The notes beneath the pieces are model-generated. The model worked only from the letters and a program-made list of their open reading frames with translations, made no database searches and was not told where the DNA came from. A program made the position numbers and the translations under genes. A stretch of DNA of 64,000 bases from an uncultured virus (IMG/VR IMGVR_UViG_3300037991_001521). Lineage: Duplodnaviria > Heunggongvirae > Uroviricota > Caudoviricetes > Autographiviridae. The stretch lies in the IMG/VR virus record IMGVR_UViG_3300037991_001521, positions 1-64,000 of that record; one strand, written 5' to 3'. Below are positions 13,661 through 60,793 of the stretch, in pieces. The stretch's first letter is position 1. Each line of letters begins with the position of its first letter.

Positions 13661-14797
13661 TCAGAATGCGGCAGGCTTGGTAGCGGTGCCAGCAAACAGT
13701 TCCACTGCACAGGCAGGGTTCAGGTAGTCTGCGCCCATGGCGAGACGACCCAGGATCACGTCGCCTTGGTAGACCACGGAGACGTCACCGCTGGTGACCT
13801 GGACCTGAGGGCCAATAGCTTCAACGCAGCCAGCGGCTTCGCGTTGGAAGATAAGACCACAGGAGTTTGCGAATTCGGTTTCTTCACCGTACTCGTTGTT
13901 GATGCCAGTGACATCGTTAGCAGCATCTTCCACAGCTTCGCTGACAAAGGAGCCAGTGTTACCGGGGGAGGTGGTGCCAGGGTTGGTTGCAGAACCAGTT
14001 CCGTACTTGGTGCCATACTGGCTAAAGAACGGAATGTTCATGGACTTGAAGATCTTGATACCAGCAATCTCCACAATGCCCTGACCGGACTGCAGGGCAG
14101 CGCCTTGCTCGTCACGGTTGATCAGTCCGTTGTTGCCAACTTCCTGGATCAGTGCATAGTATTGACGTGGGTTCAGAACACCTACACGACCTTCTTGAGA
14201 CACACCCTTCTCATCCATCGCAGCAGCAGCGTCGAAGAAAGCGGTGGTCAGTTTCTGAGCATCGTATGCATCAGATGCGTTGGCAGTAGCACCAACACGG
14301 ATTTGGGTGCCACCCGGCTCAACGAAGTTAGACTTGGTGATAGGGGAAGCAGCACGTGCACCGCGAGTGATAGCGCGGAAGATCAGACGATCATACTTTT
14401 GTGCAAGTGCATAACCGATCTTACGTGAGATTTCAGAACGCAGATCGTAGTGGGCAAGAGTTTCATCCAGGTCATACAAAAATGCACTGGAGATGAGCAG
14501 ATCATCAACGGTGATGGTCTTCTCAGCCACCGGAGGTGCACCGTCGGAGTTACCGAGGATTGCGTTTCCGGGGGTGTGGTACTCAGCCGTGGTGCGACCA
14601 GTGTAGATGAACTGCATAGATTTGCCGTTCGTCAGCGTACGCTTCATGATCAGATCACGAGCGATAGCATTATACTGGAAGCCTTTGAACATTTCTCCAC
14701 TGAACAACTTCAGGTAGAGAGCGCGGGCGTCACCCGCAGAATTAGCCTGACCAGGACGAGTCAGACTCGTGGTCAGCGTAGAACTTTGATGTGCCAT
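13661..14797 (-). CDS. Major capsid protein (gp10), copy A
   Basis: ALYLKLFSGEMFKGF...EKTITVDDLLISSAF motif of T7-like cyanophage capsids. Confidence 0.96.
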   Translation of the reverse strand: MAHQSSTLTTSLTRPGQANSAGDARALYLKLFSGEMFKGFQYNAIARDLIMKRTLTNGKSMQFIYTGRTTAEYHTPGNAILGNSDGAPPVAEKTITVDDLLISSAFLYDLDETLAHYDLRSEISRKIGYALAQKYDRLIFRAITRGARAASPITKSNFVEPGGTQIRVGATANASDAYDAQKLTTAFFDAAAAMDEKGVSQEGRVGVLNPRQYYALIQEVGNNGLINRDEQGAALQSGQGIVEIAGIKIFKSMNIPFFSQYGTKYGTGSATNPGTTSPGNTGSFVSEAVEDAANDVTGINNEYGEETEFANSCGLIFQREAAGCVEAIGPQVQVTSGDVSVVYQGDVILGRLAMGADYLNPACAVELFAGTATKPAAF

Positions 14798-14827
14798 TGT
14801 AAGGAGTAAATAGTATTAACCAACTCC

Positions 14828-14945
14828 CAAAGCTTTGAGAAAAATTTTTTGTGGTCTATCCCACCGTCTAGACGGCTAATGGGTATCCGCGTACGGGCCA
14901 AAAGCCAATGCAAGGGAGGTCCGACTCTGAGGTGCCTCCCAAGCT
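14828..14945 (-). ncRNA. Conserved structured RNA/regulatory leader upstream of capsid (element 3), copy A
   Basis: Near-identical to 60048..60177; GGGAGG/CCTCCC hairpin, CCG-TACG-CGG hairpin, GGCT/AGCC to GGCG/CGCC covariation, palindromes. Confidence 0.7.
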
Positions 14946-14946
14946 T

Positions 14947-15099
14947 TTACAGAAGACCTTTAAGGCACTTCTTTTGTTTGCGACATTGTGGTTTCTTGTC
15001 ACCACAGTGACCACAACGATTGAAAGCTATACCGTTATCAACAGTATCAGGTACTGTTTTAGTGATAGCAGCTTTAACAACCTTAGATTGATGTGGCAT
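14947..15099 (-). CDS. Small Cys-rich protein (50 aa, CGHC...C...C), copy A
   Basis: MPHQSKVVKAAITK...FNRCGHCGDKKPQCRKQKKCLKGLL, conserved with synonymous changes at 60346..60498. Confidence 0.75.
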   Translation of the reverse strand: MPHQSKVVKAAITKTVPDTVDNGIAFNRCGHCGDKKPQCRKQKKCLKGLL

Positions 15100-15115
15100 G
15101 ATGTATCTAAATTTA

Positions 15116-15187
15116 TGTAGGCGTGGACGCTTTCCGATCATCCACTCCTTAAACCGTTCCTTCGGGCTTTACAATTGTGGAAAGCTC
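15116..15187 (-). ncRNA. Candidate pseudoknotted cis-regulatory RNA (element 2), copy A
   Basis: 72 nt with 3 differences from 60515..60586, two forming a compensatory A-U to G-C pair; 5' CUUUCC complementary to hairpin loop GGAAAG. Confidence 0.7.
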
Positions 15188-15196
15188 AGAAGATAT

Positions 15197-15313
15197 TTAG
15201 TTAGATGCGACATTGCGCTTAACAATGTAAGCAACACCACGATACTTCAAGACAATTTCTTTTTGCTTGGCTTGCTGTTCGCGGACACGTTGACGCAATT
15301 CAATTTGAGACAT
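15197..15313 (-). CDS. DUF4278-type downstream peptide (38 aa), copy A
   Basis: MSQIELRQRVREQQAKQKEIVLKYRGVAYIVKRNVASN; LxYRGVxY motif; directly 3' of the riboswitch; conserved at 60594..60707. Confidence 0.85.
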   Translation of the reverse strand: MSQIELRQRVREQQAKQKEIVLKYRGVAYIVKRNVASN

Positions 15314-15327
15314 GATGAACTTCAATA

Positions 15328-15378
15328 ACCTTACCCCCCGTTCCATGAGTAAGATGCCTGCGTCCCGAAGGATGAACG
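15328..15378 (-). promoter_or_regulatory. Glutamine-II (Downstream-peptide) riboswitch, copy A
   Basis: CGUUCA-UCC(UUCG)GGA-CGCA...stem with loop AUGGAACGGG pairing to 5' CGUUC; compensatory changes versus copy B; upstream of a YRGV peptide. Confidence 0.85.
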
Positions 15379-15390
15379 TACGGCTGAAGT

Positions 15391-15748: not shown

Positions 15749-16015
15749 TAGCATTTCCATTTGCGAAGTGCAAGAGCCTTCCGTGTAGGACGACCCTTGC
15801 TGTCTTTCATTGGTCCCTTCATGCCCTTGAACCGGGCGCAGAAAGAACGTTTACGAGGTCCGCCTTTTGGCTGAGGTGCCTTGAGATTCGACCCTGTAGC
15901 TCTGTTATATTTACGNNNNNNNNNNACCGGCAGCCGTCAAGCCACCAGACCGCGATTTGTGTACACCGATCTTAAGACTTACTGAACGTGTACTACTTTT
16001 TGTAGCCTTTGCCAC
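15748..16015 (-). CDS. Small basic phage protein (DUF6321-like), spans an N gap
   Basis: ...KSRSGGLTAAG-[gap]-RKYNRATGSNLKAPQPKGGPRKRSFCARFKGM...RKALALRKWKC. Confidence 0.65.
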
Positions 16016-21698: not shown

Positions 21699-22058
21699 TC
21701 GATAATCAGATCTTGCAGATAAGGTTCTTTGTAGTTAGGTCCTTTCAGGACTTTGCCGTCAGGACGGTAAATAGGTTTGCCAAACTCGTCAAGCTTGGAC
21801 ATGTTTGATTCGTGAACCCGACGGAAAGCTTCGTCAAGATCCCACTCTTGTGATGCAGCAAATTGATAGCAAACATAGACAAGGTCTGCTAACTCTTTCA
21901 ACTGCTCACAATCATCTTTCATGTGGTAAGCTTCGTGGAACTCTGACCACTCTTCATCGATCAAAGATTTCTGTAGGCCGCGCTGGTCCTTCCCAGTCAT
22001 CAAAGTATACGNNNNNNNNNNCCATCGTCATCAGGCTGCGATGAATGTAGGAGTTCAT
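21695..22058 (-). CDS. MazG-like all-alpha NTP pyrophosphohydrolase, spans an N gap
   Basis: LIDEEWSEF...KELADLVYV...VHESNMSK...DGKVLKGPNY; probable N-terminus MNSYIHRSLMTM at 22058, upstream of the gap. Confidence 0.8.
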
Positions 22059-30658: not shown

Positions 30659-30872
30659 TCGGCTTCCGAGTAGCTCGTCTTGCCCGTCGTGGTTTCGGCT
30701 TTGCGGGTTGTCCGATGTAAGACTCCCGTTCTGCCAAATCCTTATAAATGGAGTGCCACTTGTGNNNNNNNNNNTCGAAGTAATACAACCAACAATGGAT
30801 TGCATTACGGATGAAAAAGTCTTCATCCAGCGCTTTCGCTTTTCCATCGTTAGTCGTGTTTGAAGTGGACAT
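30645..30872 (-). CDS. Small hypothetical protein, spans an N gap
   Basis: DEDFFIRNAIHCWLYYF-[gap]-HKWHSIY; preceded by the TTCACAATCACA motif and AGGA. Confidence 0.6.
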   Translation of the reverse strand: MSTSNTTNDGKAKALDEDFFIRNAIHCWLYYFXXXXHKWHSIYKDLAERESYIGQPAKPKPRRARRATRKPTEGV

Positions 30873-60047: not shown

Positions 60048-60177
60048 TCCAAACGTTTGGAAAGGCAATGTGCCAAAATTTTTTGTGGTCTATCCCACCG
60101 TCATGACGGCGAAGGGTATCCGCGTACGGGCCAACGCCAATGCAAGGGAGGTCCGACTCTGAGGTGCCTCCCAAGCT
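60048..60177 (-). ncRNA. Capsid-leader structured element 3, copy B
   Basis: See copy A; has an extra small GGCA-CAT-TGCC hairpin insertion. Confidence 0.7.
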
Positions 60178-60185
60178 GTTAAGAT

Positions 60186-60344
60186 TTAGTAGCCACGCAT
60201 TTTTTTACGGGCTTCATTGATTGCGTTTTTCCTGCGTTGCAGCTTTGCAGCAGGTGAAACATTCTTTGGATTTTCTAGATGCTTTTTAACTTTGGTTTTG
60301 GCTTTACGCCCAACACCATCAAGAAAAGATTTGACAAGATCCAT
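60186..60344 (-). CDS. Small basic protein (52 aa, MDLVKSFLDG...), copy B only
   Basis: ATG 1 nt after the upstream stop; insertion relative to copy A. Confidence 0.6.
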   Translation of the reverse strand: MDLVKSFLDGVGRKAKTKVKKHLENPKNVSPAAKLQRRKNAINEARKKMRGY

Positions 60345-60514: not shown

Positions 60515-60586
60515 TGTAGGCGTGGGCGCTTTCCGAACACCCACTCCTTAAACCGTTCCTTCGGGCTTTACAATTGTGGAAAGCTC
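60515..60586 (-). ncRNA. Candidate pseudoknotted RNA element 2, copy B
   Basis: See copy A. Confidence 0.7.
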
Positions 60587-60722: not shown

Positions 60723-60777
60723 AACCTACCCCCCGTTCCATGAGTAGGTTGCCTGCGTCCCGATAACGGGATGAACG
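60723..60777 (-). promoter_or_regulatory. Glutamine-II (Downstream-peptide) riboswitch, copy B
   Basis: CGUUCA-UCCCG(UUAU)CGGGA-CGCAGGC-AACCUACUC-AUGGAACGGG-GGGUAGGUU. Confidence 0.85.
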
Positions 60778-60793
60778 TACGGCCTGAGTCTAA

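What the first reader, a model, noticed from the sequence alone, without database searches (positions are those of the whole stretch)
15116..15187. Element 2: pseudoknot RNA with glutamine-II-like topology but unrelated sequence (candidate new riboswitch)
Seen (- strand): GAGCUUUCC-ACAAUUGU-AAAGCC(CGAAGGAAC)GGUUU-AAGGA-GUGGAUG(AUCGGAAAG)CGUCCAC. The 5' CUUUCC can pair with loop GGAAAG, the same 5'-strand-to-3'-loop topology as the riboswitch just upstream. 69 of 72 nt are identical in copy B; two of the three changes turn an A-U pair into G-C and the third lies in the loop outside the pseudoknot pairing. It ends about 17 nt before the Cys-rich peptide ATG. Inference: an aptamer or translational control element, possibly for a different ligand.
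Basis: partly seen in the sequence, partly recalled or inferred. Interest (0 to 1): 0.75.

Follow-up and report, generated by a model that had tools for sequence, protein, structure and literature searches.

The report
Phage antisense copy of host psbA leader
A conserved 69-base RNA element in front of a marine cyanophage's capsid gene is the mirror-image (antisense) of the leader of its host's photosystem II gene psbA, so the phage probably base-pairs with that host message rather than sensing a small molecule.

Summary
The block 15119-15187 (- strand) and copy B (60518-60586) are 69/72 identical, while the flanking ORFs are 81-82% identical. The 3' hairpin is real: 5 of its 9 pairs show compensatory changes across 35 distinct homologs. 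The first hairpin and the pseudoknot are compatible with the data but show no covariation. Coding does not explain the conservation.

The 21 bases at 15146-15166 are the exact reverse complement of that leader. No other 69-nt segment of the window has a complementary run longer than 11.

Five different phage alleles of this core each match a different natural host allele perfectly. All core transitions are wobble-compatible with the host RNA. G.U pairs favour folding of the phage sense strand. Neither this virus record nor five other records carrying the element hold psbA.

Best reading (about 55%): a trans-acting antisense module in the capsid-mRNA leader that pairs with host psbA mRNA. Its effect (protection or repression) is inferred only. 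A new riboswitch is not supported. No paper describing this was found.

The parts
15119..15187 (-). Element 2, copy A: the conserved 69-nt block (model R1 positions 1-69)
   Evidence: cmsearch 99.5 bits. Metatranscriptome contigs lose similarity sharply at 15187 and at 15112/15116.
15146..15166 (-). Antisense core CCCGAAGGAACGGUUUAAGGA, the exact reverse complement of the host psbA leader segment UCCUUAAACCGUUCCUUCGGG
   Evidence: 100% match to both psbA leaders of host genomes G006 and G007, on the strand opposite to PhotoRC-I.
15120..15148 (-). Hairpin H2: GG-A-GUGGAUG / loop AUCGGAAAG / CGUCCAC-G-CC. It corresponds, reverse-complemented, to P1 of PhotoRC-I and contains the AAGGAG and the in-stem ATG (15141-15139).
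   Evidence: 98.4% of cells paired; 5 of 9 pairs changed on both sides; 0 of 500 shuffles reach the observed score. RNAalifold predicts it independently.
15130..15138 (-). H2 loop with invariant GGAAAG: the proposed pseudoknot partner, also complementary to the P1 loop GCUUUCC of some host leaders
   Evidence: 7-nt complement to host locus L133; 8-9 nt for the L027-class loop.
15179..15184 (-). 5' CUUUCC: candidate pseudoknot strand, or the 5' arm of an alternative 5' hairpin GCUUU/AAAGC
   Evidence: no compensatory variation; both pairings are possible and mutually exclusive.
15119..15122 (-). GCCU, complementary to the AGGC at the 5' end of the host psbA leader
   Evidence: The cofold dimer pairs it with host AGGC.
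60518..60586 (-). Element 2, copy B (core at 60545-60565)
   Evidence: cmsearch 99.3 bits.
15119..15167 (+). Sub-threshold PhotoRC-I (RF01716) match on the opposite strand
   Evidence: 26.1 bits against a gathering score of 45; copy B 25.2 bits at 60518-60566.
15329..15381 (-). Glutamine-II riboswitch upstream (context; second copy at 60724-60780)
   Evidence: 47 and 59.5 bits, both above the gathering score of 33.
15197..15313 (-). Downstream-peptide ORF (MSQIELRQ...YRGVAY...) that ends 9 nt before Element 2
14947..15099 (-). Cys-rich peptide ORF after Element 2; absent in many homologs
14800..14945 (-). Element 3: second conserved, apparently non-coding structured region, directly before the capsid start
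   Evidence: read in different frames in different variants.
13661..14797 (-). Major capsid protein gene, whose leader holds Elements 2 and 3

Best explanation
Element 2 is a phage-encoded antisense module, an evolved inverted copy of part of the host's psbA 5' leader (the PhotoRC-I motif). It sits in the leader of the late capsid mRNA of T7-like cyanophages that carry no psbA of their own.

The sense-strand RNA presents a 21-nt stretch that pairs perfectly with the host psbA mRNA leader (the 3' flank of P1, the AU-rich linker, and the 5' half and loop of P2). This stretch is followed by a stable hairpin H2 and a GCCU that can pair with the leader's first bases, AGGC.

Shown here: the complementarity, its match to natural host alleles, the H2 structure, and the strand preference.

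Inferred: that the two RNAs meet in the infected cell, and what follows. The most likely consequence is masking of the single-stranded AU-rich linker from RNase E, which would stabilise host psbA mRNA and perhaps also the phage leader, as the cis-antisense RNAs PsbA2R/3R do in Synechocystis. The alternatives are repression or co-degradation of host psbA mRNA, or use of the abundant, light-dependent psbA leader as a signal that remodels the phage leader.
For: (1) PhotoRC-I hits the + strand at 26.1 and 25.2 bits.

(2) The published seed rows and 21 cyanobacterial psbA leaders fetched here share a 21-nt identical run with the window's + strand. The query in sense orientation matches the strand opposite to PhotoRC-I in host genomes.

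(3) Control: among 2770 69-nt segments of the window, the longest complementary run to host leaders is 4-11 nt, except for 6 segments (runs of 15, 18 and 21) that I attribute to the two copies. Within the 403-nt capsid leader, only the core matches five host genomes.

(4) 21 of 35 distinct phage elements have a perfect complement of at least 21 nt among 19 distinct host leaders. Five different phage core alleles equal five different host alleles. Close phage relatives differ only at these host-polymorphic sites.

(5) Matched allele pairs give the best cofold gain (-26.5 to -30.5 kcal/mol). Cross pairs were 0.5 to about 20 kcal/mol weaker. Shuffled elements gave -8.3 +/- 3.1. The predicted dimer keeps both hairpins.

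(6) All five core transitions in the phage RNA are A>G or C>U, which keeps a wobble pair with the host RNA (read).

(7) H2 covaries. G.U pairs (U.G in 23 of 35 at one pair, G.U in 31 of 35 at another) exist only on the - strand. The - strand also folds better.

(8) All real genes are on the - strand.

(9) There is no psbA in this record or in 5 other records bearing the element.

(10) Precedents: PsbA2R/3R (passages of PMC6596454) and antisense protection from RNase E during cyanophage infection (abstract of PMC3113571).
Against: There is no direct evidence of transcription strand, RNA ends or RNA-RNA contact. The RNA runs were available only as contigs and come from one study.

The host of these uncultured phages is not known.

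14 of 35 distinct elements have shorter perfect runs (13-20 nt) against the host leaders sampled. These include classes with a 1-nt deletion or with mismatching transversions.

The H2 stem is not complementary to the host P1 stem. The H2 loop complements the P1 loop of only some host alleles.

No antisense counterparts were found in IMG/VR for two other host leader core types tried with exact patterns, UCCGUAACC followed by GUCUCC or GCUCUUCGG (0 hits each).

The function of PhotoRC-I itself is unknown. The shared variable sites could partly reflect shared mutational tolerance.
Confidence: 0.55

Rival explanations
1. Cis-acting structured leader (a riboswitch, RNA thermometer or protein-binding site). 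H2 would sequester the AAGGAG and an in-stem start codon, with a pseudoknot between the 5' CUUUCC and the loop GGAAAG. The likeness to the psbA leader would be only a relic of a captured host fragment.
For: H2 covaries and contains AAGGAG plus an ATG or GTG in 37 of 47 variants. The pseudoknot strands are invariant, and one divergent class offers CUUCUG/CGGAAG. The element always lies in the capsid leader, here next to a genuine riboswitch.
Against: The pseudoknot and first hairpin show no compensatory variation. The in-stem codon is CTG or GTC in 10 of 47 variants. The next ORF varies or is absent. A relic would decay, yet the 21-nt core is the best-kept part and follows five host alleles. 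No Rfam family fits the - strand.
Confidence: 0.15
2. The functional strand is the + strand, or the DNA itself. It would be either a PhotoRC-I-like RNA transcribed antisense to the phage genes that mimics the psbA leader and titrates a host factor, or a DNA site for a host regulator of psbA.
For: The Rfam match is on the + strand. The P1-like hairpin keeps the GG/CC flanks and the mismatch. The loop variants UUCG, CUCG and UCCG resemble the UNCG-type loops of host P2.
Against: The score is far below the gathering score. The 3' half of P2 is missing, so P2 cannot form (marks the non-pairs). The wobble pairs become A.C mismatches on the + strand. The + strand folds no better than shuffles, z = -0.44 and -0.95. 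No conserved promoter or psbA lies downstream on the + strand. All genes are on the - strand. A DNA site would not need RNA-type covariation.
Confidence: 0.12
3. Coding: the conserved block is the N-terminal extension (MIGKRPRLH...) of the Cys-rich peptide, or a small leader peptide.
For: The frame is open in both window copies and in 16 of 20 variants that have the Cys ORF. GenBank record AP013539.1 annotates the 64-aa extended CDS.
Against: 3 of 20 variants are out of frame and 1 has an in-frame stop. 10 of 47 have CTG or GTC at the start position. 27 of 47 have no Cys ORF at all. Substitutions fall at all codon positions (R/H/Q/L, P/L, I/F/T) but keep the stem paired. The 43 nt upstream of the ATG are equally conserved.
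Confidence: 0.03
4. Attachment or recombination site: a 21-bp identity with the host chromosome used for integration at psbA.
For: Exact 21-bp identity with the host, with alleles following the host.
Against: No tyrosine integrase in the record. The site lies inside the structural operon. 0 of 42 genome-contig hits carry phage-type flanks. It does not explain the H2 covariation or the wobble pattern.
Confidence: 0.03

Closest known systems
PhotoRC-I RNA motif (Rfam RF01716; Weinberg et al. 2010, PMC2864571: passages and supplementary seed alignment read)
   Same: A 21-nt identical run on the opposite strand. A hairpin in the place of P1 with the same GG...CC flanks and internal mismatch. The same variable sites as natural host alleles.
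   Different: It lies on the strand opposite to all phage genes. It scores 26 bits against a cut-off of 45. The 3' half of P2 is absent. No psbA follows. The P1 stem sequence is different and longer. It is in a phage, and the folding signal is on the complementary strand.
PsbA2R/PsbA3R, cis-antisense RNAs of the psbA 5' UTR in Synechocystis PCC 6803 (review PMC6596454, passages read)
   Same: An RNA complementary to the psbA leader, there shown to shield an AU-rich RNase E site and raise psbA expression.
   Different: Those are host-encoded, cis, fully complementary and separately transcribed. This one is phage-encoded, trans, complementary over 21 (+4) nt, and embedded in an mRNA leader. Its effect is untested.
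CfrI of cyanophage S-PM2 (known to me only through reviews PMC12197685 and PMC10690425, passages read)
   Same: A cyanophage non-coding antisense RNA tied to psbA.
   Different: CfrI is cis-antisense to the phage's own psbA 3' end and homing-endonuclease region. Element 2 is aimed at the host leader, in phages without psbA.
Phage- or prophage-encoded trans-acting small RNAs that pair with host mRNAs (e.g. IpeX, 24B_1, misc_4, as listed in review PMC12197685, passages read)
   Same: A phage RNA acting on host gene expression by base pairing.
   Different: Here the seed is an inverted copy of a host cis-regulatory motif. It is carried in the capsid leader of a lytic-type podovirus and varies in step with host alleles.
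   Same: A proposed 5'-strand-to-3'-loop pseudoknot topology, and immediate neighbourhood.
   Different: No Rfam match of Element 2 to it. No covariation for the pseudoknot. No conserved pocket-like core.

Membership tests
PhotoRC-I (RF01716) | Score at or above the curated gathering score (45 bits) | tested here: not met
   26.1 and 25.2 bits on the + strand. True host leaders score 45-68.6 bits.
PhotoRC-I (RF01716) | P1 hairpin with GG/CC outer pairs and an internal mismatch | tested here: met
   GG-A-stem...stem-G-CC is kept in all 35 distinct sequences, counted on the - strand. cmscan aligns it to P1.
PhotoRC-I (RF01716) | P2: a 5-bp hairpin with a UUCG-type loop | tested here: not met
   The 3' half is absent. 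cmscan marks non-pairs and gaps. At most 2-3 bp are possible.
PhotoRC-I (RF01716) | Lies about 20 nt upstream of the psbA start on the coding strand | tested here: not met
   No Photo_RC gene in the record. The match is antisense to all genes.
Trans-acting antisense / base-pairing regulatory RNA | Extended complementarity to a target mRNA leader, beyond chance | tested here: met
   A 21-nt perfect run against a background maximum of 11 in 2770 segments. ddG -26.5 against -8.3 +/- 3.1 for shuffles.
Trans-acting antisense / base-pairing regulatory RNA | Complementarity kept through variation of the target | tested here: met
   Five phage core alleles equal five host alleles. All 5 transitions are wobble-compatible. 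The loop-loop match is inconsistent.
Trans-acting antisense / base-pairing regulatory RNA | Transcribed on the pairing strand in infected cells | tested here: inconclusive
   It is the sense strand of the late operon, and metatranscriptome contigs hold it. Contigs give no strand information and may derive from DNA.
Trans-acting antisense / base-pairing regulatory RNA | Demonstrated duplex and effect on the target | not testable with these tools
   Needs bench work.
Riboswitch (new class) | Conserved multi-helix fold with covariation, including the pseudoknot | tested here: not met
   Only H2 covaries. Pseudoknot: 5 pairs invariant and 1 one-sided. H1: one-sided changes only. RNAalifold returns H2 plus a 3-bp helix.
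Riboswitch (new class) | Ligand binding | not testable with these tools
   Would need in-line probing.
Glutamine-II riboswitch (RF01704) | Match to the covariance model | tested here: not met
   Only the upstream aptamers at 15329-15381 and 60724-60780 match.

The most novel reading that the evidence does not exclude
Cyanophages that lack their own psbA carry, in the leader of their most abundant late mRNA, an exapted inverted copy of the host's psbA leader motif. It base-pairs with host psbA mRNA. This either keeps the D1 message alive during infection (an RNA substitute for carrying psbA) or lets the phage read the light-dependent psbA message as a signal, next to a glutamine riboswitch that reads nitrogen status. 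Its seed co-evolves with host clades, so it also marks host range.
Probability: 0.45. Interest if true: 0.85.

Novelty: new variant of a known kind. Interest (0 to 1): 0.72.

Why it matters
Cyanophages are known to sustain host photosynthesis by carrying psbA. An RNA-only route, an antisense aimed at the host's own psbA leader, would be a new way for a virus to control photosystem II supply. It would also be the first trans target link for the orphan PhotoRC-I motif.

The allele-for-allele match gives a testable case of phage-host co-evolution at the level of RNA pairing. It also offers a sequence marker for predicting the hosts of uncultured podoviruses.

Finally, it shows that a sub-threshold Rfam hit on the 'wrong' strand can be informative.

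Tried and rejected
- Rfam at gathering threshold: nothing on Element 2.
- Earlier findings of this scan: nothing relevant.
- Promoter and terminator scan: no - strand promoter and no terminator. Three weak + strand promoter-like sites against 1.3 expected.
- 5' hairpin H0 (GCUUU/AAAGC), which is the MFE fold: 90.9% of cells paired, no covariation, broken in the L027 class.
- Exact-pattern scans of IMG/VR for antisense counterparts of two other host leader types: 0 hits each.
- RNA evidence: 20 runs listed, all kept as contigs. Four metatranscriptome runs from one study were laid. They hold the element and variants that join it directly to Element 3, but give no strand, ends or proof of transcription.
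- Capsid-anchored search: only 10 of 80 related capsid loci hold the element, and several loci have under 400 nt of upstream sequence.
- Cultured phages: no isolate holds it. The only hit among 50,697 phage records is the uncultured AP013539.1.
- Literature: searches for PhotoRC-I; for cyanophage, antisense and psbA; for cyanopodovirus non-coding RNA; for phage-encoded antisense to host mRNA; and for Pedosvirus found no description of this element (passages).
- bioRxiv supplements were not consulted.

Full report
OBSERVATION. The window is a 65,974-base IMG/VR virus scaffold with three 10-N gaps. All plausible genes are on the - strand, and it holds about 1.5 genome equivalents of two related T7-like cyanopodoviruses. 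The nearest named record, AP013539.1, is classified as Autographiviridae, Pedosvirus. Copy B lies 45.4 kb away. The copies are 69/72 identical. The flanking small ORFs are 81-82% identical and the adjacent spacers 33-62%. The order along the - strand is: small basic protein, glutamine-II riboswitch (47 bits; copy B 59.5 bits), downstream-peptide ORF, Element 2, Cys-rich peptide ORF, a second structured region ('Element 3'), then the capsid gene.

DISTRIBUTION. Scans gave the following counts of loci holding the element:
- Exact-pattern scan of IMG/VR with the core: 20 of 20.
- Scan of IMG/VR with the phage-specific 5' part: 43 of 49.
- Loose-pattern scan of metagenome contigs: 34 of 120.
- Capsid-anchored loci: 10 of 80.
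- Prokaryote-genome hits: 0 of 42.

Some contigs were fetched more than once. After removing duplicates there are 35 distinct 69-nt sequences in three classes:
- the main class;
- a variant class with a different 5' part and H2 (L007, L010, L269, L304);
- one distant form, L310, which lies directly between the scaffold and capsid genes.

In 27 of 47 longer variants the Cys ORF is absent and the element abuts Element 3. The constant context is therefore the leader of the capsid gene. Among 50,697 phage records, only the uncultured AP013539.1 has the element.

STRUCTURE. I built a covariance model from the 35 sequences, realigned them to it, and counted pairs.
- H2 (GG-A-7 bp-loop-7 bp-G-CC): 98.4% of cells paired. 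5 of 9 pairs show changes on both sides. 0 of 500 shuffles reach the observed covariation. L310 replaces GUGGAUG/CGUCCAC with ACCUCUG/CGGAGGU while keeping the U.G pair and the A/G mismatch.
- The six pseudoknot pairs show no compensatory change in register. The only support is the variant class, where CUUCUG can pair with CGGAAG in a shifted register. I estimate the chance of this at roughly one in ten.
- The MFE fold prefers a 5' hairpin GCUUU/AAAGC that competes with both of the above. It has no covariation and is broken in one class.
- RNAalifold returns H2 plus a 3-bp helix.

So only H2 is established.

CODING. The in-stem codon is ATG in 18, GTG in 19, CTG in 6 and GTC in 4 of 47 variants. 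Of the 20 variants with the Cys ORF, 16 are in frame and open, 1 is in frame with a stop, and 3 are out of frame. Amino-acid changes are radical, while the stem stays paired. Element 3 is read in different frames in different variants. Conservation is therefore not explained by a peptide, although AP013539.1 annotates the extended 64-aa CDS.

THE KEY FINDING. With an E-value threshold, Rfam's PhotoRC-I (RF01716) matches the + strand at 15119-15167 with 26.1 bits (gathering score 45). Copy B gives 25.2 bits. PhotoRC-I is the leader just upstream of psbA in marine Synechococcus (PMC2864571: text passages, the consensus drawing in supplement 6, and the seed alignment in supplement 5).

A pattern scan of one genome per prokaryote species returned 42 loci. 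Of these, 21 are cyanobacterial psbA leaders. The other 21 are unrelated bacteria, consistent with the roughly 17 chance hits I estimated from the pattern's 18 fixed positions. The host leader reads (-10 box)...AGGC-P1-UCCUUAAACC-P2-about 20 nt-AUG. The window's + strand shares the 21-nt run UCCUUAAACCGUUCCUUCGGG and the AGGC. The phage sense RNA is therefore its exact complement, which strand-aware matches in host genomes confirm.

Controls:
- Among 2770 segments of the window, the longest complementary run is 4-11 nt, except for 6 segments with runs of 15, 18 and 21, which I attribute to overlap with the two copies.
- Nothing else in the 403-nt capsid leader matches five host genomes.

ALLELES. 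An unbiased sample (RF01716 searched in 151 genomes of the host family; 14 with a match, 10 above the cut-off) plus the pattern hits gives 19 distinct host leaders. 21 of 35 distinct phage elements have a perfect complement of at least 21 nt in one of them. Five different phage core alleles are each identical to a different host allele. The host alleles differ at core positions 4, 13, 16 and 17 and are represented by loci L106, L105, L125, L122 and L326.

Close phage relatives differ only at these sites, for example L001 vs L006, L017 vs L222, and L007 vs L304. In the phage these changes are not compensated internally, because the 3' half of P2 is missing.

The remaining phage substitutions are A>G opposite a host U and C>U opposite a host G (both wobble-compatible), two rare transversions, and indels. 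All five transitions are in the wobble-compatible direction. My estimate is that this has about a 4% chance of arising at random, which is suggestive only.

Matched phage-host allele pairs give the largest predicted gain on dimerisation (-26.5 to -30.5 kcal/mol). Cross pairs were 0.5 to about 20 kcal/mol weaker. Shuffled elements gave -8.3 +/- 3.1. The predicted dimer keeps both hairpins and pairs the core plus GCCU:AGGC.

Loop-loop complementarity (the H2 loop with the host P1 loop) reaches 7-9 nt for some host alleles only. This is also suggestive only.

STRAND.
- Wobble pairs are frequent on the - strand: U.G in 23 of 35 at one H2 pair, G.U in 31 of 35 in hairpin 1, plus three further wobble intermediates. 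All would be A.C on the + strand. Only one position favours the + strand.
- Fold z-scores are -1.36 and -2.44 on the - strand, against -0.44 and -0.95 on the + strand.
- All genes are on the - strand.
- Metatranscriptome contigs from one study hold the element, but they cannot show strand or ends and may derive from DNA.

MECHANISM. The demonstrated facts are these: a covarying 3' hairpin; a mostly unpaired 21-nt stretch perfectly complementary to the host psbA leader; allele matching; and a preference for the sense strand. No psbA was found in this record or in five other records bearing the element, which are 50-85% complete.

The most economical reading is a trans-acting antisense module carried in the abundant late capsid transcript. 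The outcome is inferred. By analogy with PsbA2R/3R, which shield an AU-rich RNase E site in the Synechocystis psbA leader (PMC6596454 passages), and with antisense protection from RNase E during cyanophage infection (PMC3113571 abstract), I favour masking of the single-stranded UUAAACC linker. That would stabilise host psbA mRNA and possibly the phage leader. Repression or co-degradation, and sensing of psbA mRNA as a light proxy, remain open.

RIVALS.
- A cis riboswitch-like leader with a relic of host DNA (0.15). It fails to explain allele matching and lacks pseudoknot covariation.
- A + strand or DNA-level PhotoRC-I mimic (0.12). Against it: P2 cannot form, the wobble pattern, and no promoter or psbA downstream.
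- Coding (0.03).
- An att site (0.03). Against it: no integrase and no junctions in genomes.

KNOWN AND NEW. Element 2 is not a member of PhotoRC-I. Three of four defining features fail. Rather, it is the reverse complement of part of PhotoRC-I. It works most like antisense regulators of psbA leaders and like phage-encoded base-pairing RNAs. It differs in being an inverted, exapted host motif inside a capsid leader that varies with host alleles. My searches of the held literature found no description of it, and it is not in Rfam 15. I class it as a new variant of a known kind.

LIMITS. There is no experimental or strand-resolved expression evidence. The hosts are unknown. Part of the host allele catalogue came from a pattern that fixed 18 of 21 positions. 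Exact-pattern scans found no antisense counterparts of two other leader types in IMG/VR.

Noticed in passing
window 14800-14945 (-); also 60105-60190 (-): 'Element 3': a GC-rich conserved region directly upstream of the capsid start (GGGAGG...CCUCCC hairpin, then CCCA..CCGUC..GACGG..UGGG). It is 84.6% identical to the isolates S-RIP2 and KBS-P-1A. It has no Rfam family. It is read in different frames in different variants, so it is probably a structured RNA.
   Followed up: partly
L310:330-405: In a distant relative, the place of Element 3 is taken by a tRNA-like piece: an AGUCAG/CUGACU stem enclosing a GGUGGG-UUCGAUU-CCCACC T-arm, between Element 2 and the capsid gene.
   Followed up: no
window 15329-15381 and 60724-60780 (-): Two genuine glutamine-II riboswitches with their downstream-peptide ORFs sit inside the structural operon of a podovirus. 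Similar stretches occur in Synechococcus phages S-CBP1 and S-CBP4.
   Followed up: partly
whole window; N runs at 15916-15925, 22012-22021, 30765-30774: The record is a scaffold in which portal, scaffold, capsid and tail genes occur twice, 45.4 kb apart, at roughly 82-96% identity (measured only over the roughly 460-nt compared stretch). This looks like two population variants joined head to tail, although CheckV rates the record 100% complete.
   Followed up: no
window 14947-15099 (-); L009, L172, L184, L195: The Cys-rich peptide comes in two N-terminal families (MPHQSK... and MS/KHQSSL...) with the same C-terminus RCGxCGxKKxQCRKQKKCLKGLL. It is absent from many relatives.
   Followed up: no
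window 15171-15178 (-): A perfect palindrome, ACAATTGT, lies inside the 5' part of Element 2. It is broken in some variants (AAAATTGT, ACAACTGT) and absent in L310 and the variant class, so it is probably not essential.
   Followed up: partly
L007, L010, L310 upstream of the element: In the classes without the riboswitch cassette, a GC hairpin (GGCCUACCGGGGGCC or GGGCCUACCCGAGGCCC) follows the scaffold gene stop, about 20 nt before Element 2. It could be a processing or termination signal that sets the 5' end of the capsid leader.
   Followed up: no
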